Assembly (NCBI GenBank): GCA_963693365.1
Contig: CAVNZM010000017.1
Location: 62,001-126,000, forward strand
Reading direction: 5' to 3'
Source: Amoebidium appalachense
Lineage: Eukaryota > Protista > Ichthyosporea
Length of the DNA stretch: 64,000 bases
A program made the translations under genes and the position numbers. Positions 17,311-46,549 of the stretch are shown here, piece after piece. The notes below the pieces were generated by a model that saw only the letters and a program-made list of their open reading frames with translations, was not told where the DNA came from and searched no databases. The stretch's first letter is position 1, and every line of letters starts with the position of its first letter.

Positions 17311-19172
17311 TTCCCTCACACTAAGTGCCTCGTTCCCCTTTTCCTCTCTCGTTCCTTAGTCCCACTTACCACTAGCTTAGGCATGGTAGCAGAGTTTGTT
17401 CCTTGAAGTTCCTGTTGAAACTCTTGGCTTATGGGTTACATCCCAGGTACGTTTCCCTGGTTTTGCTCTGCTCGCGTCGTTTCGCCAGTTCGTCGCCCTA
17501 TTCCGGCGCTGCTGGTTGGCTCGTGCTGGCCCGTAATGGGCTCCATCATGATGTGTGCGCGCCCACTAGCCGCTTACCACTTTGTCTTCCCTCTCTTTGC
17601 TTCTTTCCTTCCTCTTGTCTCTTGAGTGTTCCTTTATTATTTTTATTATTTTTCTGTCTTTGTTACCCGCTTTCGTAAGCACCTCTGCTTCAGCGTGCAC
17701 AGCACACCTTTGGTGCGCATACACCCTCTCCCATGTGTGCATTGGCCCGCAGAGAAACGCTTGCGTGCGCCTTTTTCGTGCTTCGCTTTTGTGTTATTCT
17801 TTACTATTTTTTTGTTGTCTTTTTCGTCTCTTTTTTTTTATTATTGCTAAAAGTTTTTTCTTCGCTTTCTTTTTTTCTTTTTTTCCCCCTCTGCTTTTCT
17901 GCGACCTACGTCATCGGGAAAAGCTTTACAGTTTTACCCTCCTCGCCACTTACTGTCGTGTATTATAGCCAATCAGCGTGATCGCTCTTTTGGCCATGGC
18001 TCGGAACTTTTTGTGTCCAATCATTGCGGCGTAGATCTATTTTAGGAAGTTGCTTTTTCTGTTCACCAATCGTGTCCCGGGACCCTTGTCATTCCAGTGT
18101 TTTCTGTGCACTTTCGCTGGCTTAGCTGCTTTTGGGTTGTGCTTCGCTGGCGCATGTTTTGTTGTTGCTGTTTTTAGTGCTTTGCCTTCTCCGTTGTTTT
18201 CTGCGCTATTTTTGTTGTTTGCATATTATTTTACTTGCTGTAGTGCTGCCTATTCAAAGTTTTCCGTCGTGTGATTTTACGGAAGCGTGCTTGTCGTTTT
18301 ACCCTGCTCTCCTGACGTCACGTTTTGTCGGTTGCTGCCGTTGCGTTGCTGTATGTGCGCCTTTTCCCGCACACTATCCGCATTCCTGTTGCGCACCGCT
18401 GCTGTATGACGTCATCTTCTGCCTCCTCGTTCTCGATCGCTGCATATTTTCCGTAATCACTTGTAATCGGATGCGATCGGTGCCGTGAATTCACGATTTA
18501 CATACATTTTTGATCGATGTTTTGTCATTTTTTCTTTTCTCCGGGTACGTGTGCAGCATAACGTCTTTAGGCTACCCCCGCCGACCCTGGGTTCAGATCG
18601 TGCTGCTTTGCCGTGCAATTCTGTCTTTCATGTTTTGTTGTCCTGTTTGTAAGTGTCTGTTGCTTTCAGTTTCTCTTGTTTTAAGTTTCATTTGTTTCAA
18701 GGAGGTTTACCTAGTTATCATCATAGTCTTGTGTTGTTTATAGGGGTTGATTCCCTGATAGGTAGAACTAGTGACTGTTTATCTCTCCCCTGTGTTTCCT
18801 TGTCTTATTGTGTTTTTCAGCTACCACTGCCTACCTTACTCCTACCTTATCTTGTGGAGAACGGAGTAGCTTTTCACCATTCTCAACTTCTCCCCACCAC
18901 AGATTGTTGTTGACACGATGGCTGACCATGAGGACCCCCCTGTGCCTCCCCCTGAGGATAAGGACGACCACCCTCCCATCTTGTTGGGGCCGGGCCTGTA
19001 ATGTGGCGCAGCCGCCTCCGGGCCCCTATGGGGTGCTGCCCCCTCCGTCCCGGCCCCCCCCCGCCCCCCATGCAGGCGCAGCAGCAGCAGCCGCCTTTGG
19101 CGTTGATAGCCCCTGACCAAGCTCCCCTGGTTGCCGGACCCCCTGCCGCCGCCCCCCTGGCGCTGGTGGGCC

Positions 19173-19782
19173 TGTAAACATCTGTACACGCCGTACATGT
19201 TTACTATTACGAATATACTGTACATATCATAGTGATCACGTAGATATTGTGTACATATGATCAGATCAATATCACACGCGACAGCCGCGGGCTGCGGCTC
19301 ACGACTGAGCCGCGGCGCCGGCAATATGCAGTGGCCGTGCAGTCAGTATGAACCAATAGAATTCGAGAACCGCTAGGATAGGAATGCAAGTCTCATCCAC
19401 TACGGAGGCGACATCTATAGCTAAACGAACGGAACCAATAAGGAAATCAGACCCAGTTGCATAAACCTAAACGGGCTTAAGTATTGACCAATCATTTGCC
19501 ACAAAGTTATCCTTTTAGTTAGCTTCATGTTATTGGTGCACTGTGTGCACATAAAGACGACCGCACTCTTCTGACTGGTCAGAAGTCACGAAGGCATCAA
19601 TGCCACCCATCCAGATGATCCGGAACCTGGGGGCTATATAAACAAGCCGTCCCAGTACGGGGGATCACTCTGAACGAGCACATTAAATAGTAACCTGGCC
19701 GCGTGTGCCTTACTACCCGTTCTCTGTCTTTATTCTGATTCAGTTGTTCTCTGCCTTATCCCAACTAGTTCAACTGTTTACA
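19173..19782 (+). mobile_element. Solo LTR (610 bp) inserted in the first coding exon of the methyltransferase gene
   Basis: TGTAAACA...TGTTTACA termini, perfect 5-bp TSD GGGCC (19168-19172, 19783-19787), TATATAAA near 19635 and ATTAAA near 19682. The GC-rich Pro/Ala coding sequence resumes on both sides. Confidence 0.88.
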
Positions 19783-20341
19783 GGGCCGCCCCGCGCTTCC
19801 CCCTGTTGCCGCTGCCGCTGGCGCCCTTGATGCGAATGCTGCAATCGTAGCCGCTGCAGCCGCCCTTATGGCCGGCAACCGTCCCCGCCAGTACCTACGC
19901 GACTCCTACGTCTCCAAGCCCGAGGGTGCCGATTTGGACTCCCTCAGCACCTACATAGACGGGCTTCAGGCCGTGCGCGGCGAAGACGGCAACCCCTTTT
20001 CGGACGTCGCAAAGTTCAACACCCTGCTTGGCCAGCTTCAGGAGTTCCCCATCTACGATGGCGTGTTGGGTGGTGCGCGCAACATGTCGTTTGACGAACT
20101 GGTAGTGAGCACAGAAGGGTCAATGTTCTGGATCATATGAAGGAGGAGGCAGTTGCGGGCCTCCTTGAGTTCAGCAGCAGTACCGTAGCCGTAGAAGGGG
20201 GCTGCATCGTCCAAACTGTTCAGCCTCGAGGTCACGGAACGTGAGAACAAACGGAAGAGGCCCAAAACATCGGAGACCACGAAGGTCTACAAAGTGGTTG
20301 TTGCAGAGCCACCCCACGGCCCCAACAGCAATGTTTAGAGA

Positions 20342-20411
<70 letters not shown>

Positions 20412-21037
20412 TCACACACACACACGTGCACGCATGCATGCACACGTTGAAGGGTGTGGTAGGGTGATTGTTGGTGATTGTTGGTGATTGTTGGTGATTG
20501 TTGTTATTTTTTATTTTTTTCGTTAAAATCTTCATAGACTTTCGTTAGAGTCTTTTGGCACACACACACACAAGCACACACATGCAGACACATGCACACA
20601 CACACGTGCAGGCACAAGTGTGCAATGCACCGGAGTAGTCTTAATCAGCTTGTGCTCTGTTTTTTTTTTCTTGGATCTTTTCGTAAAAAACAAATGTTTA
20701 TTTTTGCCGTTGGTTGGGGGGGGGGGGGGGGGGAAGTGGGAGGGGGGAAAGGGGGGGGGGGGGGGAGGGGAGGGAGCGGTGGGGAGGGGGGAGGCAATAC
20801 TATGTGACAGACTCAACCACATGGCTATATGCTCAAATATTTCGTTACATTATGAATACCCACCCGTCCACAAGCACTCACACCACACAAACACGCATGA
20901 ACATGGCTATTAATACGAGCCGCTGATGGGTATAGTAGGGAGGGGGAGAGGGGCCGTTTGTTGTGGCAAAATGTGGCAAACAACGCTCGAAAGTTTCGCA
21001 TTCAAAACATACATACACACACACACCGGTCCACAAA

Positions 21038-21139
<102 letters not shown>

Positions 21140-23227
21140 ACAAAAACCCGCACAAATATAGTATTACCGACACACACACACACACACACTAAGTTAAACA
21201 CACCCCCACACCGCCACACCATCGTAGGCGTCACACACATGCACACATGTATACCGTAAGCACAAGTACACATCACCACACATACACACGTGCACGTCTC
21301 CCATACAAAAACTGATATATCCATACCCCCCCCCCCCCCCCCCCTCCCCCCTGCAGGTCCAAGAACTGGAGCAAGCAGGTCTACAGCTCCAAGTTAAGCG
21401 CATGATCCTGTGGAAGGATGCGGAGGCACTGGCACACCGTGACCCCGCCAAGCCGTAAACGAGGTTGTCGTCAAGCGCATCGGCCCGGTGTTTGGTGCCG
21501 GGGAGGACAACACACTCTTCGACCCCTACCAGGTCATTGAAGAGGACGGCTACCAAGGGTGACAACGTTGAAGACAGGTACGGGGTGTTCTTTAACCCTT
21601 ACAACCCCCTCCTTTATCGTTTCTCTATAAACCATCTGGAGTGGTTTAGCCCGTTTTATAGGCACCCTGACATTATCATTATGAAAGGAACTGAACGCAC
21701 ACCCCAGTCTGAGAATCCACACTCGCCCGTTAAGTACGTCCACCCCTTTTGGCATGATGTGCACGAACATGACACTGTAGTCCGAGAGCTAAGGACCATA
21801 ATTACAGCCCACCCGCATGCACTTAGTACTTGGTCGTGAACTACTGAATATTGTCAGGCCTGCACTGGCACCCCCTAAACCCATATTCCTAGATTTAATA
21901 TTAGTATTGACGGTCGATTGGATATTGAAATATTGCGTTTCAATCTGCTACCAATCATCACGTGGTCGGATATGCCATAGATCACCATCGAGCACCTGAA
22001 TCTTATAAGAAAAGCGCCTCTTTGATAGCACATCTTTTCCAAATATGGCAGGTAATTTGGGTTTCACGGTCCAAAATCTGGGTTTGGGATAGGAATCCAG
22101 AAGGGGGTGAGGGGGGGGGGGGGGGGGGGTCTTCTAGATTCCCAAACCCAAACCCAAATCTTCAGCGACAGCAAGAAGAAGCAAGAAAACGCCCAGAGCT
22201 AAGATTTAAGCATATTCACTGCAAACCCCTGCATTAGAAAATCGTGCCCTACAAAGCACGACTGTGATCGCTACTACATGGGTATAAAGTCGTGCCGGCC
22301 GATCGACGATGTCGTTCTGACTCTTTTCTCAACGGGATGGTGCGCGCGCGCGCCGCCGTATTCCGGGAATGCATTCTTGGCCGTGACTCATCATCACGGC
22401 GCACAGGAATGCATTCCTCGATCGAACGTGCGCACACACGTCGCGCACGCGGCCACAGACTCTGCACCGATCAAAACAGGCACCGACCTTACCCGTCGCC
22501 CCCCGACTCTGAACCGATAAAAATAGGCACCGACCTTCCCCCGTCCCCCCCCCCCCCCCCCCCCCCCCACCCCACCCCACCCACCCCCACACGTGCACGT
22601 GCACCAGGATCCTAGTATAGGCCAACCGTTTATTGTGACGACAGTATTTATTCAGTTCGATGTCACCGACGCAGCTCATGCGTGCCACTTTTCACGTAGC
22701 CCAGGCACATGAACACAAGAGGAGCATAAACATCTAAATGTTTACGTTACAACGAAGTACTATGATATGGCATCTAAATGTTACAACGATGAACTATGAG
22801 ATGGAGAATACTAATATGTTAACACAGCAGAGCACCGCACTATCCGGATTCTTTGGAGGTACTTCTAAGAAAATGATAATATGTTGTCACCTTGACTCGG
22901 AGTCTTGCACGAGACAACACAGCTTAATGTATACACGTTCATAAACAGCTATCACTAACACAATATTCTATGTACTTGCACGGGAACAACACAGGTTGAG
23001 CTTACGTGTATGTGTGTGTATGTGGTTTAGAGTTGGGGGGGGGGGGGGGGGGGGGAGGGAGGAGAGAGAGAGGGGGAGAAGCGAGGGAGAGAGACAGAGA
23101 GAGGTGTGTGTATGTGTGTGTGTGGGGGGGGGGGGGGGAGATCGAGACTAGAAAGGAGAAGAGAGAGGAAAGAGAGAGGGAGAGAAAGAGAAAGAAAGAG
23201 AGAGAGAGAGAGAGGGAGAGAGAGAGT

Positions 23228-23265
<38 letters not shown>

Positions 23266-23277
23266 AAGGGAGATAGA

Positions 23278-23309
<32 letters not shown>

Positions 23310-23531
23310 GTGGGTGTGTGTGTGTGGGGGGGGGGGGGGGGGGGGGGGGTTGTTTTATCTTGTCGGGAACCGGGGGGAGGGGGGGGGAGAAGGTGAAAGG
23401 GCAAGAATAAGAGAAGAAGAAAGGGAACCAGGAAGAGAAGGAGGAAAAGGTTAGAAGAAGGAGGGGTCTGGATCGAGAAGGGGATGTAGGAAACATGCAG
23501 AAGGGGGCACAACGGATGGATGGATGGATGG

Positions 23532-23597
<66 letters not shown>

Positions 23598-26500
23598 TTG
23601 TGTGTGTGTATGTGTGTGTGTGTGTGTTTGTGTGTGTGTGTGCGTGTTTACATGTGACTGTGTGTCATATGAACGTCTACAAACATGTGCATACGTGTAC
23701 GGACAAACACCTACATCTTCTTCTACAAAAATAAACAAACACACACAAAAAGATACTGCAAACACATATATGCCACAATAACGAAGCAAACCTAACCTTT
23801 AAGCACCCCCCCCCCCCCTCCCCACCCCCGCCCGCCCCCCCCCCCCCCCCCCCCCCCGCCCGCCCCCACTTACACCAGTACCACCCCCCTCCCTTCCCCA
23901 CCCCCCCCCCCCTCCCCACGTCTTCCCGTCCGTCCCTTTCCCTCCCATCCCCTACTAACACAACACACACGGGCACACACCATTCTCTACCGCCCGGCTA
24001 CCAAGCTGCCCTTCAACTTTAAAGCATCACAGCCACCCACTGACACAGGCACGGTGCACACAGGTGTAGAGTGGCGTGTTTTTGGTGTGTGTGTGTGTGT
24101 GTGTGTGTACGTGTGAGTGATAGTGTGTGTAGTAAAGTAAGAAAAAATTAGCATGTATTTCTATGGATAACGTATGGTATTAAGGCGTGCATGAATGTTT
24201 AGACAAGGCTTGGGTACACATTATTATCGTTTCATTATAAAGCCATGAATGCATGCAAAGGAGAGGCATGTCCAAAGTGCAAAACTCACTGGCCTGAAAA
24301 TACCTGTATGGGCTCGAATACATGCATACACAAACACAAACACCATAAAAAGACTCCTTCCCGATGCAAGAATGAAAGCCATGTGTGTTGAAAAAAAAAA
24401 AGGAAATGAGTCAATGAAGAGAAAAGATGAACAGCAGTCCTAAACGAAGATCAAACACTGGCCTTGCAGGCGTGCCAGTACAGCGCGAGGGCAGGAAGAG
24501 GGTGGAGAGGCGAAGAGGGAGGGAAGGAGGCTGCGGACTTCAGAGTAGGGGCGGGAGGGGGCCGGGTGGGGGGAGGGGGGTGGGGGGGGTAAAACTAACC
24601 TGCCTGTTGTGGCAAGGAGTGCACACGTCCAGAATGTTTCGCCGCCATTTTTAATTAAGGAACATTGAAGGTAGCACGGTTCGAACTTGAACGCAGAAGT
24701 AGAGTGAAAAAAAAAAAGGTGTCAAAAAAAACACACCACGTCTTGTATATAACTGACAAACGATATGAACTTCGAGAACAACAGGAGTGGACTTATGACA
24801 AACTTTGGAAACGAAGTTCATTGGCTGCTGTGGAGAGCCTTGTACAGCAACACGGGAACCTGACCAGCAACGGAAGTCTCTTCGCGAAGCTCTTCATCGA
24901 TGCACACGTAAGTCTATATATTTTCTCCACACTAGTTCGGCGTTACCATTCGAAATCTTTGTCTTTGCCCCCCCCCCCCCCCAGATCAATCAGATTTTCC
25001 CCCTCCACATGATGGCATCGTATTTTCCTCATTGGAGCCCATTATCTCGCATGAGACAGTCACTTGGCATACACTACCTACATACACTGTAAGGCTCACG
25101 GTGGTACAAATGACACCTACCCCCATTTGCATGTGTTGTGCTTGCAATTTGTTACTGTAAGTCAGTACCATTTTATATTAGTCATATTTCAAAAGTGTGT
25201 ATGGAATCTGAGAGTCGTGTGTGTTTTTTTATGGTCACCGTGTGCTGTTAATGTGCGTGCTCCCCATTTGACTCGGCGTGTGTGTGTATGTGCTAAAATT
25301 CGTGTGCGTGTGTGCTGGGGGGGTTGGGTGGGGCGACGTGGGGGGGTGGGTGGGGGGCTAGGGGCAGGGGTCTGAGGGAAGCCGAATGGGTGGGGTTTGG
25401 GGGGGGGGGGGGGGGGGGGGAGGGGGAAGCTGGGAGGGGAGGGGAGGGGGAGGGGGGCGATCAACTAGCACTCCAGACCAGCAATCATATAAATACAAAT
25501 TTGTTGTTGATTCTTGAGTTTGCATTATCCTTTACAACAACACACATCATGCATGATAACATCCAACCACCCACCACACATGCATGTTGAGCACACTGCC
25601 AAGCACAAACAAGATCATGTACGCACATGCACGTACATGTGTATGCTGCATGCAAATAGATAGGCAAAATGTATGCATACACAAAAACAAATTGCAATAT
25701 ACATACACAAAAGCAGACACAGAGACACGTCAGACAAATAGACACACATTTGTAAGGCTTGATCTCCCTAGAAAATGTGCACAGTATCACACAGGCTTTG
25801 CTTTAGTCGTAACATTCTGCTCCCACAGGTGTACCTCAACCTCACTCGTGAGGAAATGTTGGTGGTGGGGGCCCAGCACAACAAGGTGCAGACGATGAGC
25901 AAGGAGCTGTGCATGTACGTCACGCTCAAGCTTGGCCGAAACAAGAAGCCGAACTTCAAGAAGATGCCTACACACGGATGAAGGATCTGCCACAGATGGG
26001 CTTCTTAAAGTATGTGTGCAACTCCTGTATTAATCCCTCCCGCTTCCCCCCATCCTCCCCCCCCCCCCTCCCCCCTTCCCCCTTCCCCCTTACCCCCTTA
26101 CCCCCCCTACTCCACATACCCCTTCCCCAGTATCTATAGCTCTTTTGACCCCTAAATTGAAGGCTTGTACATGATAATCTTGCCGTCATCATCATATCAT
26201 GACCTGTACACATTCAACAATCTTGTGCATCGACACCGGCTCCCCATATACATCAACTACTCCATACATTGAAACCCCGTCATTGCTTTTTTTTTAAAAA
26301 AAAAATTCCCGTTTGCCTCTTGCTCTCCAATGCCCCCCTCTCCTCTCTGCCCATCCACTTCCCTTACCTGCTCTCTGTCCCTTTCATGCATTCATGCATG
26401 CTGAAATACTTTATTTGCCCCCCGTCTATTTGCCCCCGTCGATGCTGTTAGTAAGCATTCACACAAATACACACATACGCATGCATGCAGCCCCCCCCCC

Positions 26501-26670
26501 CCCCCCCCCCCCCCCCCACACAAAAAAAAAAAAAAAGAAGAAAAAACAAGAAGAAAAAAAAAAAGAAAAAAAGAACCTGAACATTAAGATGACATCATTT
26601 CCCCTCCTTCTGTTCTTCTCTTGGCCCAACTTTCAAGAACACCCAATGCTCTTGCACTTATTCTTCGTTT

Positions 26671-26718
<48 letters not shown>

Positions 26719-28061
26719 ACACACCCAACCCAACCCAACCCACCCAAACTACCCCCCTCCCACCAAATTCAACCAGCCATCATGAACTATCTACGTTAAG
26801 GTTCTTCAGCACATGCTCAATCGAGGGCTTTTCCCTCTTTTCAGACTGAAGAAAATGATTGCTGAGACCTACCAGCTACTCGGCAAGGAGACCCAAGCCA
26901 AGGTCGATAAAGCTCGCCGCGAAGGCAAGGAACCAGCAGCCAAGCTCTACGACGTGGTCGCACCCCACCTCAAGGTGATGTCGAGTGCAGAGCCATTGTG
27001 GAACGTCATTTCACAGGTGCTCACTCAACCCCATCCCCCCCCCCCCCCCCCCCTTCTACCCACCCACCCACCTTCGATATACATGTGCAAGTACAGTTGC
27101 TGGGTACTTTGTGGTGACACACACGTGCACACCCATACACAGATGCACACACAGAAGCACGGCCACAGAATTTGAATACGACTAAACATACACACCAACA
27201 CCAGGTTGGCATTGCCTAATACGTAGCTGCGAGAGCGTAATCTTGGAGGAGTCCGACAGCAAATCTGCTCCTAGGTTGGTATGCAGTATTGCGTAAATAA
27301 AGATGGTTTTTCTTGGCTTTTCTCCCCTCCCTCCTCACCCAAACCGTTCAACCACTGTGATGTTGCACACAGAAGACTCGTATATACACATGATCATCCA
27401 CACCACTCCCGACAGTCAAAGCCACTATCCTGTATCCAGCACTCCCCCCCCCCCCCCCCCCCCTCCCCCTCTCCCCCTCCTCCTCTCCCCTTGCCCCCCT
27501 CCTTCCCTCAGGCAATATTTTTTTATCTTTCCTGCTGTCTTTACTTAGACTGACTACCACATTAATGCAGATCTACGAGGCACATGCTGGCGGCCACTTT
27601 GACACACGAAAGAGGAAGCCGGACCTCAAAAACCCATCCAACGACCTCAGCCCCACCATTTTCAGGGGCATCGACCTCCTGCCAACATACGCAGCGGTCA
27701 ACCTTCTGCAACAGGTGCTCAAGGGTGAATCTATCGCGGAGCTCAAGAAGCTTCCCGCTCAAATCTATGCAACGAGGGTAATCAACCCCCCAACCTATAC
27801 CTTCCAACCCTCCGTGGGTGTCTCCGTGGGTGTGGGCTTGGGTGCGCACGGGCAAAGGCTTGCTTGGCTCTCTCAGTTCTAACCTTTGTCTCCCCCGTCC
27901 TACCCCAAGTATCATTGCACATGCACTGTACCTAGATTCAAACCCCTCTCTTTCCCTGCCTAGTGAACGTCTCCCTCCCCCCCCCCCCCCCCCCCTCCTC
28001 CCCCTCCCCCTACCACCATATACACCCAATAACACACACACCCGTAACACACAACTTGAAG

Positions 28062-28201
<140 letters not shown>

Positions 28202-28253
28202 ACTTTTGGCCATAACGGCTGCCCTGCGCTGAAGACTCCCTTTGCACACAGAC

Positions 28254-28392
28254 AACTTCACTTGTGCCCTTGTTGCCACTTCACTTTACCCTTGTTGCCA
28301 CTTCACTTTACCCTTGTTGCCACTTCACTTTACCCTTGTTGCCACTTCACTTTACCCTTGTTGCCACTTCACTTGTACCCTTGTTGCCACTT
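28254..28392. repeat. 22-bp minisatellite, ~6 copies
   Basis: Tandem CCACTTCACTTTACCCTTGTTG units, intronic. Confidence 0.9.
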
Positions 28393-28903
28393 TGACACAG
28401 CTACGAGTGCCTATACACACGTACGCACGTACACACGTACACATGTATACACGTATACACGTACACACACACACACAAACACACACAACACACACACTGA
28501 GTCTGACACACACACTGAGTCTGACACAGACACACGAAACGTACAATATGTACGTGGCATTACTGATACTGATTGACACAATATTCTCATACAGGCGGAC
28601 CTGGACCTGCAGCTAACTCTGTGGGAGCGGACAGAGGAAACCATCAGAGCAGTGGCTGATAAGTCTGGGAAGCCGTTACCCCGGGATGCTCCTCCTACCT
28701 GGGCTGAGGTATGTATTTTGGTGCCATAATGCCAGCTTGTCCTCTGCTCTCTTCGGTTTCAAACACTTGCACACAATCAAAAGTGGTTCGGGAGGTTTGT
28801 GAGTGGGCAATTTATTTTTCAGTTCTTTCTTTATCTCTTTCTTCTTCCCTTTCCTTTCCTTTTTTTTTTTTTTTTTTTTTTTTTGTTGTTGTTGTTTAGG
28901 GGT

Positions 28904-28950
<47 letters not shown>

Positions 28951-29143
28951 GAGGTAGTTACATTTTTTGTGAACCACACACACTCACCCCAAGTTTGGGG
29001 AGGGAGATCAGATGGACCCCTCGAATAGGAAGGGGGAAGGAGTTGCATAGGAGTTGCATATAAACATCTGCCTAGCAACTTAGTTCTTGGGGCACATGTT
29101 TCTTTTGCTCGTGTGTTTTCCCACTGTTGCAGTTGGCTGACCC

Positions 29144-29174
<31 letters not shown>

Positions 29175-29897
29175 AAAAAAAAAAAAAAACACCTACATAA
29201 ACATCTAGATGTACACTGTACATTGACAAACAACACAAATGTCGCGTGCACACACATACACACACACACACACACCTGCTATTTACAGATCAAGCCCCAA
29301 ATTGGGCATGTGCTCCCCGGCAAGCAGGAGTTCAGAACCCTGGCGATTGGGCATTTCAAGAAGGATATAGGGGCCCTGGCATCTGTCAATGCTCTCGTCA
29401 ACCAGATCAAGTCCTGGGGCCGGCAAGGAGAAGCCGGCTTCTGTGGCATAAACAAGTTCGTTGCAGCCCTGGTGGACCCCTCGACACAACAGCGGCCTGT
29501 GTCCACCATATACGCCGTGCTGCAAGTGGACATCCTAGACCAGGCCACCCTGACGCCAACATATATACAGGACAACCTCAGCAAGCGGGCTGGGCACAAC
29601 CCGCCACCAGAAGTGCAGCACCAAATCACGAGGATTGCAACACCCAACGTATGTAGCCGATGATGATGTCATAAAAAGACTGCCTTCGGTTAGCTCAAGA
29701 AGTTGTGGCTGATATGGTTCACTTCTGATTCAGATCAGAATTATCTCTGACCCACCTTCACTGTTATATCCTGTTCGTAGCACAATGCAACCAGGAGACC
29801 CCCACCCTTCACCCCAGTGTTTTCTTATTATGAATAATACGAATTGGCAATTGCAAAGAAAAAAATACATTGTGGCTTACAAATCTCGTACATGCAG

Positions 29898-30019
29898 GGT
29901 GGCTTTCCCTACGTTCGCATCGACCCCCCCGGCAGTTCCGTGTTCACAAGCGACCCGGGCCAGGTCGACACCACCCAGGTGCCCTTCACCGACTCCAACT
30001 GGAAGTCTATTCTGAAAAG
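29898..30019 (+). CDS. Methyltransferase exon carrying motif IV (GGFPYVRIDPPGSSVF)
   Basis: CAG acceptor and GTAAT donor; phase 0 in, phase 2 out, matching exons 29289-29648 and 36480-36885. Not shown in the ORF track in this frame. Confidence 0.75.
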
Positions 30020-30953
30020 GTAATACCCCAGTATGGCAAATTACAGACTCTGATACGCTAGTAATTGGTGTCTGTTAGAGATTGTTTTGGCCTTTTCGAA
30101 CCTTTTACCCCCCCCCCCCCCCCCCCCCCCCAACACCTACACACACACGCCCCCAGACACCCACACACACCTCCCTCTACCCCCACCCCCACACCCCCCG
30201 GCCACCACCACCACCACCACCACCACCCCACCAAAACAAAACAAAACAAAACAAAACAAAACGGGAAAAAAACACCTTTTCTTCCTGGAGCCCTTACTTA
30301 TGCTTGATGGCAAAGTGTCCCCCCCCCCCCCCCCCCCCCCATATGGCCATTTGTGTGGAAATGGAAATTGAGCTGTGCATACCCGCATCCAATCATTTGG
30401 CGTGTGTGCATACCCGCATCCAATCGGCTCATATGACTTCTCAGGAGCCGATTCGGACCGGCAACCAATAGCCGCCGCGTACCCTCCGGGACCCTGGATA
30501 GAGTTTCTGCTAAGCCCATGGGGTGAATAGCAAAAAACCATATAGTAGGGCAGAAATACTTAGATTTATAGGTTTATAGCCAAAAATAACTATTATAAAC
30601 ATTTTTTTGCCGTTTACTGCACCATTGTTCAAGGTATTAGCGAGTTTATACTTTGCCGGCACACAGTAAGTTGTGAAAAGCATCTACCCACCTCGGTAGA
30701 TCGTCAATCAGATGCAAGACGGCCTCCTATAACCAATGAAAACTATATCCGCAAAACTTAGGTTCGGTCAAGGAGTGCAAACCAGTTGCGATTGATTGGC
30801 CGTGTTAAACGTGGAATTTGCTGTGTGCCAGCCACGGCCATCTAGAGTCTCTAGATGGCCGTGGTGCCAGCCTATTTATTTTTGACGGACTGGCAGGTGT
30901 GGAAACGACGTTTCTCTCAGCGGTTTGCTTCAAGTTTGACCTGTCACAAAGTT

Positions 30954-31970
30954 ATGGCGGGGACCGATATTGAGATTTTTTGCCCAACAAGCCAGACGTG
31001 GGCAGAAGTTATCAGTTTCAAATATGTAGCGGCAGGAAACTCTAGAATCACAGCAGTGTGCATTAACAACTATACCTGCCTCAGTGACGATAGTCGCCTC
31101 TTTTTGAAAACTAGACACGACATCTTGGGCCATGAGAATGGCTCAGAGCTGAGAAACATTAAGGAAACATCGAAGGAGCTTGACCTGGACAAGGAGCAAT
31201 GGCGCCACAAAGGCACAGCTGGAGCTAGCTTCAAACGCAGCAAAACGTGAGTTTTTGTTCATAAACGAGTCCCAGACAGTGCCTCTGCATCACTTGGTAG
31301 TACACAAGACTCTTTGTGTGGGGATAGTGGGCGCGAGATTCGAATGGGCTTTTTTTTCATTGTGCTATTCCCTTCCGTACTTCTTTTGTTAGTTGCTTGT
31401 CATGCATATTAATAGAAAGAAAGCAAGTGCAAACATTAGTTTGCTTTGTGTTTTTGTTTGCCGAAACGAATTCGTTTTAACGAACTATTTTTGTACTCTC
31501 AGGGTGAGGGTGGTCGACTATTATGAGCCTGGTACAGAGTATAACGGCGAAAAGGAGGTTTATTTCCTCTGTGAAAACAACACAGGCGATCGGGTGGGTG
31601 GATTCTGATTCCCCCCTCCCCCCCCCCCCCCCTCCCCCCTCTCTGCGACACACCCCTGTTTCTCATTCTCTCTCTACATCCGTGCCTGTTACTACAGTTT
31701 TTTTGGTTACGTTTTCTTCAGCACACAACTCTTAGCTGCATGCTTACCACAATTGCACGCTATAGTATAACACGAAGTCAACCAACTCGAGTCGGTCAAC
31801 ATTACCTTTTCCCCTCCCTCCCTCCCTCCCTCCCACGGGCACTCCTCTGCTCATCGGTTCATCGGTTCATCGGTTCACTTGGAAAATGCTGATCGATAAG
31901 CTGCATACGTTTGCCTGTGAGACATGTACAAGATTTAAGGAGAAAGATGCTTTCGTAAGGTTTTCTTTCT

Positions 31971-32007
<37 letters not shown>

Positions 32008-32403
32008 ACCAACACACACACAGCCTCAAACAGCCCTCCCCGTCCCCCATTGAACACATAGAAGAAAAGGAAAGGAGGGAGGGGGAGAGGAGGGAGGGGA
32101 AAGGTATGTTAGCGGACAGCTGCGTTTGTATGTGTAACGGGAGAGTGAGCCTTATGATAGTGAGTAAATGAAAAAGGTTGATCTCTCATTGCATGGGGGT
32201 TTCAGGTCTGGTGGACCCGTGTTGGGGACAAAAAGAAAAACAGCCCAACTGACGTCATCCCGCTCCCTGCCTTCGCAACAATTGAAGAAGAGTTGCCAAC
32301 GAAAAGGTGGGGGGCCCTGCGAACGGCGTTCGGCAACCAACTAATCACCAAACTGGAAAACAGGGTGCAACTGTACAAAAAGAATGGGGCAGAGAAAGAA
32401 TAG
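30954..32403 (+). CDS. Orphan spliced cargo gene of the TIR element (~193 aa), unknown function
   Basis: Exons 30954-31246, 31503-31593 and 32206-32403 are GT-AG with matching phases (2,0): MAGTDIEIFCPTSQTWAEV...VRVVDYYEPGTEYNGEKEVYFLCENNTGDR-VWWTRVG...NGAEKE*. Confidence 0.6.
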
Positions 32404-32470
32404 TCAGGCCCCCCCGTTGTGCTCCTGCGCATAGAGTCATTTATTGATTTCTTGTGTCTGCTGTCTATAG

Positions 32471-32862
32471 TGGGGTACTTTGATTACACTGAAATGTGGA
32501 TGAACGAGTGCATTACCTGGAATGCTATCACTGTTCGGGTAGAGATGGATACAGACGATTTGCTTGCAAAGCTCCCTCCTCAGTATCTGTATTATAAGCA
32601 CGCAACCAATGTTTTCACTGAGGTTCAGGAGGGGAAAAAGTTCAGCTTGTTTTTTTACCAAAAGGCAGTTGTTTCGTTTGACCACTCTGCTTGCAAGCAC
32701 GACGAGCCTGGTGCTCGTGAAACATATGTGGATGAAACGGGTCGATTACGTTATAAAGACCGTACAACGACATCATGCAAAGGCAAGACGAAGCCGGACT
32801 TCTCTGTCTTGCGCCTGACATCCAGTGTAACAGTTCCCTACAAGCGAGTTGTTCTTAAGTAA
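32471..32862 (+). CDS. Further coding-like exon/ORF in the TIR element, unknown function
   Basis: High-complexity ~130-codon frame (GYFDYTEMWMNECITW...VPYKRVVLK) after a TAG acceptor. Its phase does not join cleanly to the upstream exon. Confidence 0.45.
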
Positions 32863-32935
32863 ACTATATAAATACCGACTGCAGTCCAGGCTCATCGAGG
32901 TTGTGTCCCTTGTCCCTCATCCATCTCTCTCTCTC

Positions 32936-32980
<45 letters not shown>

Positions 32981-33304
32981 TTTCCTTGTCGGAGTCCCCC
33001 TTACGTGCATAATCATGCGCTAGGACGGACACATGCCCAGGAGCACATCAACATCATGGCACACACATGCACACATGACACCTCCACGTAGCACACACAG
33101 ACACACGCACGACCCCTCACTCATATCATGCTCACACTGGAGAACTCTACATCTATACGGAAGTGATTATCTATGTTCAAGTATCTAAGATTATCACAAC
33201 GGACGTGCTCACACACACGAACACACACACACACACACACACACATGGGCACAACAAAAAGCACACACCCACATGCACAGACACACACACACACACACAC
33301 ACGT

Positions 33305-33346
<42 letters not shown>

Positions 33347-33363
33347 GGCACACACACACACGT

Positions 33364-33403
<40 letters not shown>

Positions 33404-33410
33404 GGGCACA

Positions 33411-33446
<36 letters not shown>

Positions 33447-33477
33447 GTCCATCACCACACATACCGCCAGCGCACGG

Positions 33478-33571
<94 letters not shown>

Positions 33572-33918
33572 TGTCACACACGCACCGGCTGCCGCAGTAC
33601 ACACATACACGTACACCAAAATGCTGTATTCTGTCATGCACAAGTGCCGCACATATGCACGTGGGCGTCGGCACATACACACACCACAGCGGCACACACA
33701 CACACACACATACACACACCGACACACACACACACAGTGACACCACATGGACAGATGCCATATACTTATATATACATAATCACACACACACACCGTTCCA
33801 CACCGTACACACAACCACACAGGCGTGGCGCGCGGCGCACCCGGTCCGTCACACACACACACACACACACACACTTACTGGCACCGTACACACAACCACA
33901 CACACATGTACACGGCAC

Positions 33919-33959
<41 letters not shown>

Positions 33960-34048
33960 GGCACGCACACACACGACACACACACACACACACACACCTG
34001 TCACACACAGTCACACACACACACACCAGCACACACACCATACACTGA

Positions 34049-34097
<49 letters not shown>

Positions 34098-34247
34098 CAC
34101 GTGACGCACACACAAATACAAACATCATACACATGTACAAACATACATGTACACAAATGTACACACACACACACACACACTGCCGTTTGGCAAACACACA
34201 CACTGCATGTGCACGTGTGCGTGCGCGCAGGCACTGACACACACTCA

Positions 34248-34289
<42 letters not shown>

Positions 34290-34330
34290 GTGACACACAC
34301 ACACACAGTATACACTGTACAAACACACAC

Positions 34331-34451
<121 letters not shown>

Positions 34452-34614
34452 ACACCGTGGCACACACACACACACACACCGTCGCACACACAACACACAC
34501 ACACACACACACACCGTCACAAACACACACATTGCCGTACACATACACACACACAGAAACACACACACTGCACGTGCACGTGTGCATGCGCGTGCGTGAA
34601 GGAATATGCGCGCG

Positions 34615-34656
<42 letters not shown>

Positions 34657-34691
34657 CACTCACAGCACACACCGTACAAACACACACACGT

Positions 34692-34812
<121 letters not shown>

Positions 34813-36008
34813 CACACCCAAATGCGAGGCCCAGCGTGTAGTATTCTTGGCACTGCGAGAAGCAACAGCAGCACAAGGAGTAGCGTAAGTGTTTCTAGTG
34901 GTGTTGTGATACAGATAGTCAGCTTATCGAAGAGGAAGCACGTAATAGTGAATGTGTGTAATGCTAACGCAGCAAGGCTGCATATGATTGTCCCTGCCAT
35001 TGTGCACGCATGTGCATTTACACTAACTAAAAGGCTGGATTGTGAACGCATATTACATGTGTGCGTGTGTCGTACACGGTCACGGTAGTGTAAAAGCTAT
35101 GTTGTACTAGTGGCATACACGCATGCACATATATAACGCTGGCCCCGGTACACGTACTGGTCCTCAGCCCATGGCCGAAGTTGTTTGTTTACATAGCTGG
35201 ATCTGGACTTTCATCTACACTACAACACGAGCACACGACCCAGCTTATTGGAGAAGAGGAACACGCTTGCCAGCCTTATCTTACCATGTATGGCTATTGC
35301 AAAAGGGGTAAAAAAAAGAAGAGCCAACAGACAAAGGCTTTGAAAAGGGTAAAGCATATTTTCACATAAACGTTACTGCCTGGCCGGACGGTTGGAGGCG
35401 AGCGCGAGGTCGAGGCTGCGTCGTCGGAGGCTGATCGGAACACGCCGGGCTTCTAGGGCAGAGCTGCGTGTAGGTTGTCGACTGAAAGCAGCATATTTCT
35501 CCAATGCAGCTGCCTAAAAATTTATTATTAAATTAATAATACCGCAATTTCTGACTGCACAAGCAGGATATTGTATATACGTACATGTACTGTACGTCGT
35601 ACAAGATCTTGACTTGAACTTAAAGATACACTGTTCAGCTTTACAATTGCCAAGTTTAAAGCAGACTGAATAACAGTCCTAAAAAACTATATATTGCAAA
35701 AATAAAGTAATTAAATTTGCTCTTCAAACAATACAAACCTTTGGTTAATACATATATGTTTTCGAACCTGTGGTGCGAAAGATGGCCTTTTATCTGGTCA
35801 CTTAACATTCCTAAATCAATGCTTTTTTTGCCCCCGCTTTATTGATCACGATATCATTGGATAGTGAGCTGATCCCGCGGCGCCGGCTAACTAGGTCTGA
35901 ATCAATTTCCATTACCCTCCTCCAAAAAACGGCTTGATCGGATTGACCAATATGGCAGACAGTCCCGCAGCCGCTCCCTAATTGCGCGTTTCAACACAAA
36001 TGGCCATA

Positions 36009-36058
<50 letters not shown>

Positions 36059-36355
36059 ATATTGCTACTCTGCCCCGGCGACCTGCCCTCTCCATCCCCA
36101 ATAAGGCATCCACATCAGGCTGTCTGCAGTCCCCTCACCCCCCCCCCCCCCCCCCCCCCCCCCCCAAACACACACACACGTACATGTACACAGACACGTG
36201 CATCTATATAATGCATATAATTGGGCATGTGTCATTGGTTTTCCTTCCTTTCTTGCACCGTGACAAACCCTTCATTACAGTATATTGCCACATCTCAGAT
36301 AACCAAAATCAACAACAGTTGCACTAGGTGCTAAGATCATGACAAGTTCTACTCC

Positions 36356-36391
<36 letters not shown>

Positions 36392-36479
36392 CCCACCCAC
36401 CCACCCACCCACCCACCCACCCGCCCACCCAAAAAAAAAAAAAAAATACATGCAACTGCTTCACTATCTCATTCATCAG

Positions 36480-36885
36480 TATGCGCCTCAGGCTCAAGCA
36501 GCTGAACGAGAGTCAAAGCTGCTACGACTGGGTCCTTGCGGCATCGTTCCAGGGCCACCAGGCAACGATTCCACTGTGCCAGGTGCTGCTGGAGCAGCAG
36601 TACCTCTACGACACCTTCACGTACGATGCACCTGCAAAGGGCAGTACCACCACCCACCTTGGGAGGCCTGCTACTCCGGCGTACTTCTATATTGTGGCCT
36701 ACATCACCAACGCCAAGAAGTTCACTCGCCCACAAGGCTTCTTCTACGCCGATCCTGATGAGGACAAGTCGACACTTCTGCTCCAACCCATCTACCCGGA
36801 CCCAGACTCAGTAGCTAAGAGGATGCGGTTCAACCTGATGCGAAGTGGCGAACAGGGTAAAGAGGGAATTCTTTGCCCCCAACAG
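36480..36885 (+). CDS. Methyltransferase central exon (motif V-VIII region)
   Basis: ORF 36481..36942 frame, bounded by CAG and GTACGT. It ends CPQQ, which joins KPVNVE of the last exon to form the HPTQKP-like motif. Confidence 0.8.
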
Positions 36886-37297
36886 GTACGTTTACTTGAT
36901 CACCCTTGCCCTCCCCCCTTCTTTCCCTCCCCTCCCCCGTGAATCAATGTTCCCCTATGATTTCATCTATCATCCCCCCACACATGATACAATACCGGCC
37001 ACCCAATCATTGCATTCTTTCCTTAGAACCACTACCCCATTCCGTGCCACACCCCATCATACAATTCTCAAGTTTAACCCCCCCCCCCCCTCCCCCCCCT
37101 CCCCCCCTCCCCCCCCACACACACACACCATGGCCTCCCCTCCTCCTTCTCCTGTGTGTGCATGTGCACACGTCCCCCCGCCCTACCTCCCGTCCCCTCC
37201 AACACATACACACCAAATAAAAAGGAAATATTTTGTGATCTATGCATGCACACAGCACTCTACAAAAATCTCATGTTCAACAAGCACACATATGCCT

Positions 37298-37351
<54 letters not shown>

Positions 37352-37573
37352 ACACACCACACACACACACCACACACACACCACACACACACCACACACA
37401 CACCACACACACACCACACACACACCACACACACACCACACACACACCACACACACCACACATGCACACTGGCAGCCCCGGCCCACCACCTCTTCACACA
37501 CACGCACACACACAAGGCCCTCCTCATCCTGTTGTTTACTCCGTGCTTCTTGCCCACAATCCAAGCACACACA

Positions 37574-37627
<54 letters not shown>

Positions 37628-37730
37628 ACACACACCACACACACCACACACACCACACACACCACACACACCACACACACCACACATACCACACACACCA
37701 CACATGCACACAGCCCCGGCCCACCACCTC

Positions 37731-37835
<105 letters not shown>

Positions 37836-38051
37836 GGCCATCCCCCTCCCTCATTATGGTACACCGTACGGCAACCTCCTCAACCTCCTCATCCCCCTCC
37901 TCATCCTCTTTACTCTGTCCCCCTTCCTCACAAGCCATAGTCTGTGGCCTCTTTTTATTACAGCAAGACTTCCCCTTTCCCCTCCTGTGCATCACGTGAA
38001 ACCACTGCACCCACACAGCCTCACGTTAAGATGACGTCAAAATGACGTCAT

Positions 38052-38269
38052 TTTCTAGTTTCAACTAGAAATCCTAACGTCCAGACAAAAGTGACGACAT
38101 TTCTAGTCACTACTAGAAATCCTAACCTCCAGACAAAAGTGACGACATTTCTAGTCACTACTAGAAATCCTAACCTCCAGACAAAAGTGACGACATTTCT
38201 AGTCACAACTAGAAATCCTAAACTCCACTGGCAGACAAAAGTGACGACATTTCTAGTCACAGCTAGAAA
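38052..38269. repeat. Tandem array of 48-bp units, each with a 20-bp palindrome
   Basis: TTTCTAGT-N4-ACTAGAAA at 38052, 38100, 38148, 38196 and 38250 (last has 1 mismatch), linked by near-constant TCCTAACCTCCAGACAAAAGTGACGACA. Confidence 0.9.
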
Positions 38270-38415
38270 AATCAACAAGTAATTCATCTCAAGTGTAGGC
38301 CTTCAGCTTTCAAGTCATTTTCCTTTCTAGTGGGCACTAGCAATGTTAGCACCCAAGTCAATTCGAGCGCGAGCCCTTCCCATTGTCTAATTACTCTCCT
38401 CCTTTCCCTCCACAG

Positions 38416-39315
38416 AAGCCCGTAAACGTGGAACGGGCACTTATTCGTAGGCACTGCCCACCAAACAGGGCAGTGCTGTCACTCTGCTCGGGAACTGGCA
38501 CGGTGATTGAAGCAGCAGCCATGGAACGTCGTGACGTTGTGGGGTTTGAAATCGACGAACGACTATGTGAAACGATTACGTCCGTACGAATGCCGTCAGC
38601 CAAGTTACGCAGCCAGGTATACCACGCCGTGGTGCAAAAGAACGCTGCACTTCTTCCACATACGGAACCGTCCGGAGACTCGTCTGCAGCTGAGCCAACG
38701 ATGGAGGCTCTTATAATGAAGGAGCGCCTGTTGAAGGTTGCAAGTTCGGAAGACGACGGCTGGATGTTTCAACTGGGCTCGTTGAACTCTGATGGCACGT
38801 GGGGGAATTTGCGTTATTCCCAAGTCATGACCAGCATCAGTCGGGAAAAGATCGTCTCGTATTGGGCAAGGAAAAAGCGGGGAAGTGATGGCTTTGATGA
38901 TGACGACGTCGCTCATAAGCGGCCACGGAAAGAAACACCCGCTCGGCCGGCACGGTCGGAAACGATTGCTCTGCCGGCAGACGTTCTTCGACCCCTCGGC
39001 CAGTCGTTCAGGGAGGAAAGAGAGAAAGAAGTTCAAGAGCGACTGTCTTCGTTCGGTGCGAGTGCCATACATGCTTCCACTCATTCAAATGAAGCTCAGG
39101 TGGCTAGCAACACCACGGCGACCGTTCCAGCTGCAGTGTCAAACGACACGAACAACACGTCAGCCCCGAGTCAAGATGACAACAATTCAGCCGCTAATAC
39201 GCAAGCCGCCACATCAATTGAGGAGACCACCCAACAGGACACAACAAACGAGAACAGTGGCAGGGAAGATTATGAGATCGACGACGAATTGGCAGAGCAG
39301 CTTTTTACTCCCTGA
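38416..39315 (+). CDS. Methyltransferase terminal exon: SAM-binding motifs X-I-II plus NLS-like, low-complexity acidic tail
   Basis: KPVNVERALIRRHCPPNRAVLSLCSGTGTVIEAAAMERRDVVGFEIDERLCETI parallels KP..L.R.I...S..GD.VLDPF.GSGTT..AA...GR...G.EID..YC of beta-class MTases. The tail has RKKRG and HKRPRK. Confidence 0.85.
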   Translation, partial: KPVNVERALIRRHCPPNRAVLSLCSGTGTVIEAAAMERRDVVGFEIDERLCETITSVRMPSAKLRSQVYHAVVQKNAALLPHTEPSGDSSAAEPTMEALIMKERLLKVASSEDDGWMFQLGSLNSDGTWGNLRYSQVMTSISREKIVSYWARKKRGSDGFDDDDVAHKRPRKETPARPARSETIALPADVLRPLGQSFREEREKEVQERLSSFGASAIHASTHSNEAQVASNTTATVPAAVSNDTNNTSAPSQDDNNSAANTQAATSIEETTQQDTTNENSGREDYEIDDELAEQLFTP

Positions 39316-41081: not shown

Positions 41082-41381
41082 TCTACGCGCACACCCACAC
41101 ACACAGCTAGAACATAGGGGTTCGGAGCTAGGACACACGAGTACAGGGAAACGGAGCTCGGGAGAACGGGCCAATAGGGCTGAGTACAAAATTTCGCAGG
41201 CCAACTACGGCGCCCGCGCGCGTCAAGAATAAATGTCCCTATACAAAGACGTTTATTCTGGCCACTGCACATAATTTTACTCCCCCCCCCCCCCATCCCA
41301 CGAGCCTCCCCCCCCTTACACTCACCTAGCACTCCCTCCCCCCCCCCCTTCTTCTACCGCTGTGTCCGCCCACACCCCCGC

Positions 41382-43217: not shown

Positions 43218-43220
<3 letters not shown>
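41382..43220 (+). CDS. pol: Ngaro reverse transcriptase-RNase H (true start uncertain because of poly-C runs)
   Basis: RT motifs YRRIHHLS, DVQAAFR, LPFGLKSSP, YVDD, FIGIEFD; RNase H motifs TDAAG, ELLAI, CDN, NHLADAISR. Confidence 0.93.

Positions 43221-43249
<29 letters not shown>

Positions 43250-46493: not shown

Positions 46494-46549
<56 letters not shown>

What the first reader, a model, noticed from the sequence alone, without database searches (positions are those of the whole stretch)
18919..39315. Spliceosomal-intron-rich ParB-like/beta-class DNA amino-methyltransferase gene in a eukaryote
Seen: nine GT-AG exons from 24785 to 39315 join in phase (needing one extra A in an A-run near 25938) into ~861 aa. 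The C-terminal half has motifs in the order III (VLQVDILD), IV (IDPPG), X-I (CPQQKP...SLCSGTGT), II (VGFEID). Established: this order defines beta-class N6-adenine/N4-cytosine DNA methyltransferases (PF01555), normally bacterial or phage. ParB-MTase fusions are known in phages, and a few eukaryotic acquisitions exist (e.g. bdelloid N4CMT). Inference: YDKLWKRSSLAAVESL...VYLNLTREEMLVVGAQHN resembles a ParB/DndB-like domain with a degenerate nucleotide-binding motif. Host-style introns and NLS-like basic clusters point to long residence and nuclear action. This is a candidate non-5mC epigenetic or element self-marking system, invisible in the ORF track because the catalytic domain is split over ~9 kb.
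Basis: partly seen in the sequence, partly recalled or inferred. Interest (0 to 1): 0.88.

Follow-up and report, generated by a model that had tools for sequence, protein, structure and literature searches.

The report
Broken self-marking transposon DNA methylase gene
This is a damaged copy of a nine-exon gene for a bacterial-type DNA methyltransferase, with six DNA palindromes in its last intron; it likely belongs to the transposon-borne ParB-plus-methylase genes already reported in seaweeds, whose intact copies are predicted to bind and mark their own DNA.

Summary
The gene is real. Nine GT-AG exons join into 857 aa with one break. The C-terminal half aligns end to end with a family whose model folds like beta-class amino-methyltransferases. 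This copy is broken. Intron 7 holds a 5.7-kb nested element. Motif IV is DPPG, against DPPF in 15 of 15 relatives. New here: intron 8 carries six TTTCTAG-N6-CTAGAAA palindromes, the only ones in the window, and a paralogue keeps the outlying site perfect. Paralogues include a deletion derivative. A ParB-like plus N4C/N6A methylase on a transposon is already published for Ectocarpus (PMC12477816), and ParB-like genes beside inverted-repeat arrays for red algae. No transposase or element ends were found, and the ParB fold is untested. The scan noted similar genes in two other genomes. Verdict: new member of a known but untested kind.

The parts
24711..24821 (.).
   Evidence: separate contigs at depth 456-481 (X1) and 198 (X7) against 78 and 37.5 for the adjoining gene contigs; loose end behind 24802 in X1 continues into other sequence
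24822..24907 (+). Surviving 3' part of exon 1, just after the lost GGQH motif
   Evidence: contigs of X1, X4, X7 match from 24822 with 0 other letters; donor GTAAGT
25829..26009 (+). Exon 2 (VYLNLTREE...HN, resembling the end of a ParB N-terminal domain, recalled); frame broken by a 28-nt loss near 25942
   Evidence: (3 of 3 DNA runs)
26845..27016 (+). Exon 3, predicted helical central region
   Evidence: covered without indels by X1, X4, X7 contigs
27571..27777 (+). Exon 4, central region with RKRK; candidate DNA-binding part (inferred from position only)
   Evidence: no family hit
28595..28708 (+). Exon 5
29289..29648 (+). Exon 6, ending the linker and carrying the first methyltransferase strand (LQVDILD, motif III position)
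29898..30019 (+). Exon 7 with catalytic motif IV as DPPG (aromatic residue missing)
   Evidence: DPPF in 15 of 15 family rows covering the motif
30340..36010 (.). Nested 5.7-kb element in intron 7, bounded by 22-bp terminal inverted repeats in a poly-C tract, with its own decayed ORF pieces
   Evidence: 21 of 22 complementary; intron is 801 nt without it; no Pfam match
36492..36885 (+). Exon 8, central strands of the methyltransferase domain, ending in CPQQ
38052..38343 (.). Six palindromes TTTCTAG-N6-CTAGAAA in intron 8: five in a 48-bp tandem array, one outlier with unrelated flanks; candidate parS-like loading site
   Evidence: (6 matches, 0.01 expected by chance); paralogue keeps site 6 perfect
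38416..39315 (+). Exon 9: KP.. (completing PQQKP), SAM-binding SLCSGTGT, VGFEID, then basic clusters and a low-complexity tail; stop at 39313-39315
39322..39459 (+). 3' flank repeat unit, repeated at 45037-45166 on the far side of an inserted retroelement
   Evidence: 85.5% over 138 nt; joint 39520 to 39325 in X12, X15, X7

Best explanation
The window holds a disrupted copy of a multi-copy, spliced gene for a beta-class DNA amino-methyltransferase with a likely ParB-like N-terminal part, likely carried as an accessory gene by a large DNA transposon, whose intact copies would bind the palindromes in their own intron 8 and methylate the element's DNA, likely on adenine. Shown: exon structure, methyltransferase homology, the lesions in this copy, paralogues, the palindrome array. 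Inferred: ParB fold (GGQH and HN motifs, domain order, precedent); transposon carriage (paralogues, deletion derivative, repeated 3' flank, precedent); binding to the palindromes by the central region; 6mA rather than 4mC (D at the first place of motif IV); a role in keeping the element expressed or marked as self. This copy itself cannot make the protein: its start is lost and exon 2 is frameshifted.
For: Profile alignment of the spliced C-half to family A2: probability 98.4, E 6.5e-15, co-linear. The part before motif X aligns on its own: score 25.9 against a maximum of 17.8 in 60 shuffles, 0 of 60 reaching it, though probability is only 12.7. The family model (P0004, pLDDT 72.9) matches M.BceJIV, CcrM, M1.HpyAVI, M.RsrI, M.PvuII and N4CMT. 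The exon 8/9 junction rebuilds PQQKP, matching PTQKP of relatives. Lesions. Paralogues: a copy that leaves the window at 38551 for sequence like the gene's 3' end; a divergent copy in X1 whose likeness starts at the intron-8 acceptor and whose next 11 codons hold 7 silent and 3 replacing changes. Six palindromes, none elsewhere in 64 kb; site 6 shares 13 of 14 arm letters but 10 of 28 flank letters with the array, and is 8 of 8 symmetric in the paralogue. Precedent: Ectocarpus Sola1-1; Bostrychia PAG2 and PAG3 with inverted-repeat arrays.
Against: No transposase match among 99 flanking and nested ORFs of 50 aa or more, and no terminal inverted repeats enclosing the gene in 14000-50000. No ParB or DndB profile hit on any exon in Pfam, NCBIfam or PHROGs; GGQH rests on 30 loose letters from one run, and the residue after it is G, where ParB needs R for nucleotide binding. 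Motif IV is DPPG and was not checked in other runs, so no copy with a complete catalytic motif has been seen. Five of the six palindromes are tandem copies and not independent. The deep paralogue in X12 and X15 is itself deleted and changes frame after GFE. The window protein sits on a long branch (3.01) in a quick tree only, and the relatives are unnamed contig ORFs whose eukaryotic origin is inferred.
Confidence: 0.5

Rival explanations
1. A catalytically dead lineage: all copies in this organism have lost the motif IV aromatic residue and the ParB arginine, so the protein binds the palindromes and perhaps SAM but does not methylate, acting as a DNA-binding or anti-silencing accessory factor.
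For: DPPG against DPPF in 15 of 15 relatives; the family's conserved WD and W after motif IV align to VD and F; GGQHG lacks the Box II arginine; the tyrosine of motif IV stacks on the target base in N4CMT models and SPPY to APPA abolishes activity.
Against: SAM-binding motifs I and II and PQQKP are intact; the divergent paralogue keeps the motif I region with mostly silent changes; D-P-P itself is kept; DPPG may be one more lesion private to this copy.
Confidence: 0.25
2. A domesticated host epigenetic writer like bdelloid N4CMT or Marchantia DN4MT1, intact in other strains and broken only in this one; the palindromes are an unrelated minisatellite.
For: Eight host-style introns; the gene lies among host genes (mitochondrial carrier, sideroflexin); other runs show no stop or frameshift in the stretches covered (exons 1-4 and 9); no transposase nearby.
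Against: Several paralogues with a deletion derivative, present in X1 but not among the X7 contigs laid; repeated 3' flank; palindrome arms kept where spacers and flanks change; the published fusion of this architecture is transposon-borne.
Confidence: 0.15
3. The lesions are assembly errors of this window and the organism's gene is intact.
For: No laid run shows the 24822 junction or the 28-nt loss among the pieces listed; the region is rich in poly-C and CA repeats.
Against: A clean 28-nt loss in non-repetitive exon sequence and a young retroelement with 99-100% identical repeats look biological; the runs differ from the window at scattered single letters too, as other strains would.
Confidence: 0.1

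Closest known systems
ParB-like + N4C/N6A DNA methyltransferase accessory gene of Sola1-1_Ec32, Ectocarpus (PMC12477816; passages and supplement rows seen)
   Same: Same predicted two-domain fusion in a eukaryote; 1104 aa there against 857 aa for this 5'-truncated copy; the authors propose binding and modification of the element's own sequence.
   Different: There it lies in a complete 21.5-kb element with 282-bp TIRs and a transposase on the other strand; none was found here. Sequence kinship was not tested (no sequence at hand). No palindrome array appears in the passages seen.
Plavaka accessory genes PAG2 (PF01555 + SET) and PAG3 (ParB + 2OG oxygenase), red algae (bioRxiv 10.1101/2025.02.11.637652; passages seen, supplements not seen)
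   Same: Transposon-borne PF01555 methylase, and a ParB-like gene beside tandem arrays of inverted repeats proposed as its binding sites.
   Different: There ParB and methylase are separate genes with other partner domains and the arrays lie next to PAG3; here the two are likely fused and the array lies inside an intron.
Beta-class amino-methyltransferases (PF01555): M.BceJIV, CcrM, M.RsrI, M1.MboII, M.PvuII; phage ParB-N6N4 fusions (bioRxiv 10.1101/2025.10.10.680097; passages seen)
   Same: Motif IV before motif I; PxQKP; fold of the related family.
   Different: Spliced; motif I reads SLCSGTGT rather than DPFxGSGT; motif IV DPPG; pattern scans with the family alignment A2 confirmed no relative in prokaryote genomes or viral contigs.
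Bdelloid N4CMT (PMC8885841, PMC10406627) and Marchantia DN4MT1 (bioRxiv 10.1101/2021.02.12.428880); passages seen
   Same: Eukaryotic, beta-class, bacterial-type; N4CMT has introns.
   Different: They carry SPPY (4mC), are host genes with shown activity, and N4CMT has a chromodomain rather than a ParB-like part.

Membership tests
Beta-class DNA amino-methyltransferase (PF01555) | Catalytic motif IV N-terminal to SAM-binding motif I | tested here: met
   IDPP at aa 394, SLCSGTGT at 580; co-linear profile alignment
Beta-class DNA amino-methyltransferase (PF01555) | SAM-binding motifs I and II with preceding PxQKP | tested here: met
   PF01555 positions 166-219, E 2e-5; M.BceJIV E 6.4e-6; phrog_67 E 4.6e-9
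Beta-class DNA amino-methyltransferase (PF01555) | Motif IV (D/N/S)PP(Y/F/W) | tested here: not met
   DPPG in the window; DPPF in 15 of 15 relatives; other strains not checked. Filed as a homologue, not as an active member
Beta-class DNA amino-methyltransferase (PF01555) | Fold | tested here: inconclusive
   Met for the relative P0004; the window's own split domain could not be folded
Beta-class DNA amino-methyltransferase (PF01555) | Methyl transfer to A-N6 or C-N4 in DNA | not testable with these tools
   Needs an assay or modification-aware sequencing
ParB/Srx/DndB CTPase fold | Profile or fold match of the N-terminal domain | tested here: inconclusive
   No hit for exons of 36-69 aa; most of the domain is missing from the window
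ParB/Srx/DndB CTPase fold | Box II GxxR motif | tested here: inconclusive
   X1 loose end reads GGQHG in the exon 1 frame: shape of a GGxH/DGQHR motif (recalled) but without the arginine needed for NTP binding; one run, 30 letters
ParB/Srx/DndB CTPase fold | Palindromic parS-like sites close to the gene | tested here: met
   Six sites in intron 8; binding itself untested
Transposon accessory ParB-methylase genes of algae | Inside a DNA transposon with ends and a transposase | tested here: inconclusive
   No transposase match in 99 ORFs, no enclosing TIRs; but this copy is 5'-truncated and no whole genome is held
Transposon accessory ParB-methylase genes of algae | Multiple copies, with decayed or deleted derivatives | tested here: met
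   at least two further coding variants in X1 and several 3' flank variants
Transposon accessory ParB-methylase genes of algae | Sequence kinship with the Ectocarpus or red-algal proteins | not testable with these tools
   Their sequences were not among the proteins returned or in the supplement rows seen

The most novel reading that the evidence does not exclude
A eukaryotic transposon carries a complete ParB/parS-type address system: the protein loads on the TTTCTAG-N6-CTAGAAA array in its own last intron, spreads along the element and writes 6mA or 4mC over it, a self-targeted bacterial-style mark that shields the element from host silencing. The intron would supply the first concrete binding site for this class.
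Probability: 0.3. Interest if true: 0.75.

Novelty: new member of a known kind. Interest (0 to 1): 0.45.

Why it matters
[quoted passage not shown] This locus adds a heavily spliced member and a short, sharply defined candidate site kept in a paralogue, which makes the idea testable with one gel shift and one modification-aware sequencing run. The copy in the window is dead and its catalytic motif is incomplete, so it points to the system rather than showing it.

Tried and rejected
No whole genome is held. Homologue search with exon 8, longer proteins: 0 of 137 candidates; with alignment A1, longer proteins: 0 of 7990 scored; weak evidence, so no full-length relative is in hand. ESM Atlas on exon 8: best score 0.79, uninformative. 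Folding A1 (4 rows) failed, pLDDT 35.6. Metagenome scans with A2 and A1 confirmed 0 of 68 and 0 of 505 stretches; viral scan with A1 gave four generic phage methylases; A2 gave 0 of 29 viral and 0 of 46 prokaryote stretches. The N-terminal 333 aa matched none of the fetched proteins. The lost upstream exon 1 letters were not found elsewhere in the window (1 match, 0.9 expected). A GGQH at 21502 was rejected as an off-frame chance match by codon pattern. A possible extra exon at 24986-25088 was rejected: 103 nt does not fit between two phase-0 junctions. No RNA holder on record was listed; X12 and X15 are only guessed to be RNA, X12 did not cover exons 1-4, and no splice joint was seen directly. 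NCBIfam hits of exon 9 to Erm, KsgA and CpaM (E 3e-4 or worse, far below cut-offs) reflect the shared SAM-binding stretch; an RNA or protein methyltransferase reading was rejected on motif order and fold. A search for mutational data on the motif IV aromatic residue of M.TaqI listed two papers, not read; that single changes there cripple such enzymes is recalled. The careful tree did not finish. The host lineage was not established (one search gave no hit).
Full report
Observation. The nine exons are there: 24785-24907, 25829-26009, 26845-27016, 27571-27777, 28595-28708, 29289-29648, 29898-30019, 36492-36885 and 38416-39315. All eight introns are GT-AG and the join gives 857 aa with one break in exon 2. 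From that break to the stop the frame is open across seven junctions. I chose the boundaries, so this is not a formal test, but the exon 8/9 junction independently rebuilds PQQKP, which aligns with PTQKP of relatives. The window is a microsatellite-rich eukaryotic region with mitochondrial-carrier and sideroflexin exons on either side. No whole genome is held and the host lineage was not established.

The methyltransferase. Of the nine exon pieces scanned, only exon 9 has a credible Pfam hit: PF01555, E 2e-5, 25.1 bits against a cut-off of 26.7. The same stretch matches M.BceJIV in the PDB (E 6.4e-6; named) and phage DNA methyltransferases. A full HMMER search with its first 150 aa gave 11 proteins at E 0.001 or better among 1.84 billion. 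Eight are ordinary PF01555 proteins; three (P0004, P0005, P0011) share the unusual LC[NS]GTGT form of motif I. Searching with these gave 17 proteins among 7992 candidates scored, none with an informative name. Sixteen were aligned as A2 (P0005 left out). They diverge abruptly after a shared V in a QV-like motif, which I read as run-through into an intron, so they are probably eukaryotic exons (inference). The AlphaFold model of P0004 on A2 has pLDDT 72.9 and matches M.BceJIV, CcrM, M1.HpyAVI, M.RsrI, M.PvuII and N4CMT first, METTL3 only from rank 41. The window's spliced C-half aligns to A2 end to end with probability 98.4 and E 6.5e-15. Without the strong X-I-II block, the rest still scores 25.9 against at most 17.8 in 60 shuffles, with low probability (12.7). 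A quick tree puts the window protein with this family and apart from 11 prokaryote-type rows (SH-aLRT 96), on a long branch; the careful search did not finish. Against activity: motif IV is DPPG, whereas 15 of 15 A2 rows that cover it have DPPF. The aromatic residue stacks on the target base in the N4CMT model (PMC10406627, passages), and SPPY to APPA abolishes N4CMT activity (PMC8885841, passages). D at the first place suggests adenine rather than cytosine (same paper).

This copy is broken. I laid four runs on 24700-27800. All three DNA runs (three samples, two studies) carry 28 extra nt behind 25942, which gives exon 2 the phase that exon 3 needs; the fourth, X12, did not cover the exons. 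In all three the gene contig starts at 24822 with 222-225 unrelated letters before it. The 30 letters printed for X1 read, in the exon 1 frame, as ...GGQHG followed by the window's AAVESL. Depth is only a hint of copy number. The lost letters are not elsewhere in the window. Intron 7 contains a 5.7-kb element bounded by 22-bp inverted repeats (30340-30361, 35989-36010). A young tyrosine-recombinase retroelement sits in the 3' flank, between two copies of a flank repeat that are adjacent in X12, X15 and X7.

The ParB part. No exon matches a ParB or DndB profile, but the pieces are short and most of the domain is missing. GGQH followed some 50 residues later by a strand and helix ending in HN resembles ParB Box II and Box III (recalled). 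The arginine that NTP binding needs (bioRxiv 2025.10.10.680097, passages) is absent. This part is likely, not shown.

Paralogues. On 38290-39520 run X1 shows several variants. One matches to 38551 and then continues in sequence like the gene's last letters, so it has lost most of exon 9; it is deep in X12 (704) and X15 (49), while the middle of exon 9 has depth under 5 in X12 and none in X15. In those two runs (one sample, only guessed to be RNA) the exon-side contig begins at 38414, the AG of the intron 8 acceptor, whereas X1 contigs begin at 38394-38396; this is a weak hint of splicing, and intron-side contigs exist there too. A more distant variant in X1 resembles the window only from 38410, next to the acceptor, and its next 11 codons hold 7 silent and 3 replacing changes (read from the loose end), as expected under selection on the protein. 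X7 shows 3' flank variants but no coding paralogue among its 11 laid contigs.

The palindromes. Intron 8 holds six TTTCTAG-N6-CTAGAAA sites at 38052-38343; the pattern has 6 matches in the window against 0.01 expected, and these are the only CTAG-N6-CTAG in 64 kb. Five lie in a 48-bp tandem array and are not independent, yet their arms are identical while spacers differ. The sixth shares 13 of 14 arm letters but 2 of 6 spacer and 10 of 28 flank letters with the array. In the paralogue that site is perfectly symmetric (8 of 8 pairs) with two other spacer letters; in the X1 and X7 alleles of this locus it has decayed to 6 of 8. This is the pattern expected of a site for a dimeric DNA-binding protein such as ParB on parS (recalled).

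Mechanism. Most likely, intact copies make a nuclear protein whose central region binds these palindromes, whose ParB-like part dimerises and perhaps spreads, and whose beta-class domain methylates nearby adenines, marking the element as self or keeping it expressed (confidence 0.5). Binding, spreading, catalysis and the biological effect are all inferred. The main rival is a dead enzyme that only binds (0.25); a domesticated host writer (0.15) and assembly error (0.1) follow. Against the favoured reading, 99 flanking and nested ORFs gave no transposase match and no inverted repeats enclose the gene.

What is known. Ectocarpus Sola1-1_Ec32 carries a 1104-aa ParB-like plus N4C/N6A methyltransferase gene, described as a possible new class of accessory proteins that bind and modify their own transposon (PMC12477816, passages and supplement rows). 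Red-algal Plavaka elements carry a PF01555-SET gene and a ParB-2OG gene beside tandem arrays of inverted repeats (bioRxiv 2025.02.11.637652, passages; its supplements, not seen, may show the repeat sequences). Iyer et al. list eukaryotic amino-methyltransferase clades, some from phage ParB loci (PMC4738411, passages); Iyer 2011, cited by the Ectocarpus paper, was not seen. I also saw passages of bioRxiv 2021.02.12.428880, PMC11244446, PMC12695648 and PMC12344493, none describing this gene in what I saw. Eight literature searches led me to no experimental test of this class; that is limited to the library and to the passages read. The scan's own notes describe similar decayed genes in a plant and an animal genome, with no look-alike by sequence; I did not check them.

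Verdict. Observation partly confirmed, interpretation partly supported. A new, broken member of a recently described and untested kind. Its added value is the candidate binding site. Interest 0.45.

Noticed in passing
window 39515-45000 (+): Young, apparently intact tyrosine-recombinase retroelement with Gag-like (CCCH), RT and YR ORFs and split direct repeats A1 39515-39872, B1 44341-44431, A2 44423-44780, B2 44910-45000 (99.4% and 100% identical). The layout is that of Ngaro elements (recalled). Runs X12, X15 and X7 show the flank repeats adjacent without it.
   Followed up: partly
window 30340-36010: Nested element with 22-bp TIRs starting CATATGGCC inside a poly-C tract; spliced-looking ORF pieces at about 30855-31246, 31503-31592 and 32206-32860, a 33-bp palindrome at 30832-30864, and no Pfam match. 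Superfamily unknown.
   Followed up: partly
window 18919-21580 (+): Decayed spliced gene with strong third-position G/C bias and several stops or frameshifts; the 19784-20137 piece looks Gag-like by eye but has no Pfam or PHROG match. Not linked to the methyltransferase gene.
   Followed up: partly
window 48634-55016: Copia-type LTR retrotransposon (LTR-like repeats 48749-49329 and 54428-55016, 96% identical; gag-pre-integrase, protease and RVT_2 matches) between exons of an M20-type amidohydrolase gene (assignment by eye).
   Followed up: partly
window 46281-47552: A 630-bp tandem duplication ends at the first visible exon of the amidohydrolase gene; no upstream exon motifs of that gene were found in the window, so it may be 5'-truncated too.
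   Followed up: partly
window 45581-45597 and the loose end behind 24802 in run X1: The repeat fused to the gene's 5' break continues in X1 with a 14-nt stretch also present downstream of the gene's 3' flank, hinting that both come from related elements. Seen by eye.
   Followed up: no
protein P0005: A family relative with a C-terminal cysteine cluster resembling a PHD-type finger (weak C1_1 hit, E 0.073): a possible chromatin-reader fusion in the same methylase family.
   Followed up: no
window 28255-28392 and 22458-22552: Further minisatellites: a 22-bp unit in intron 4 and a 47-bp unit upstream; neither appears among the palindromes listed.
   Followed up: no
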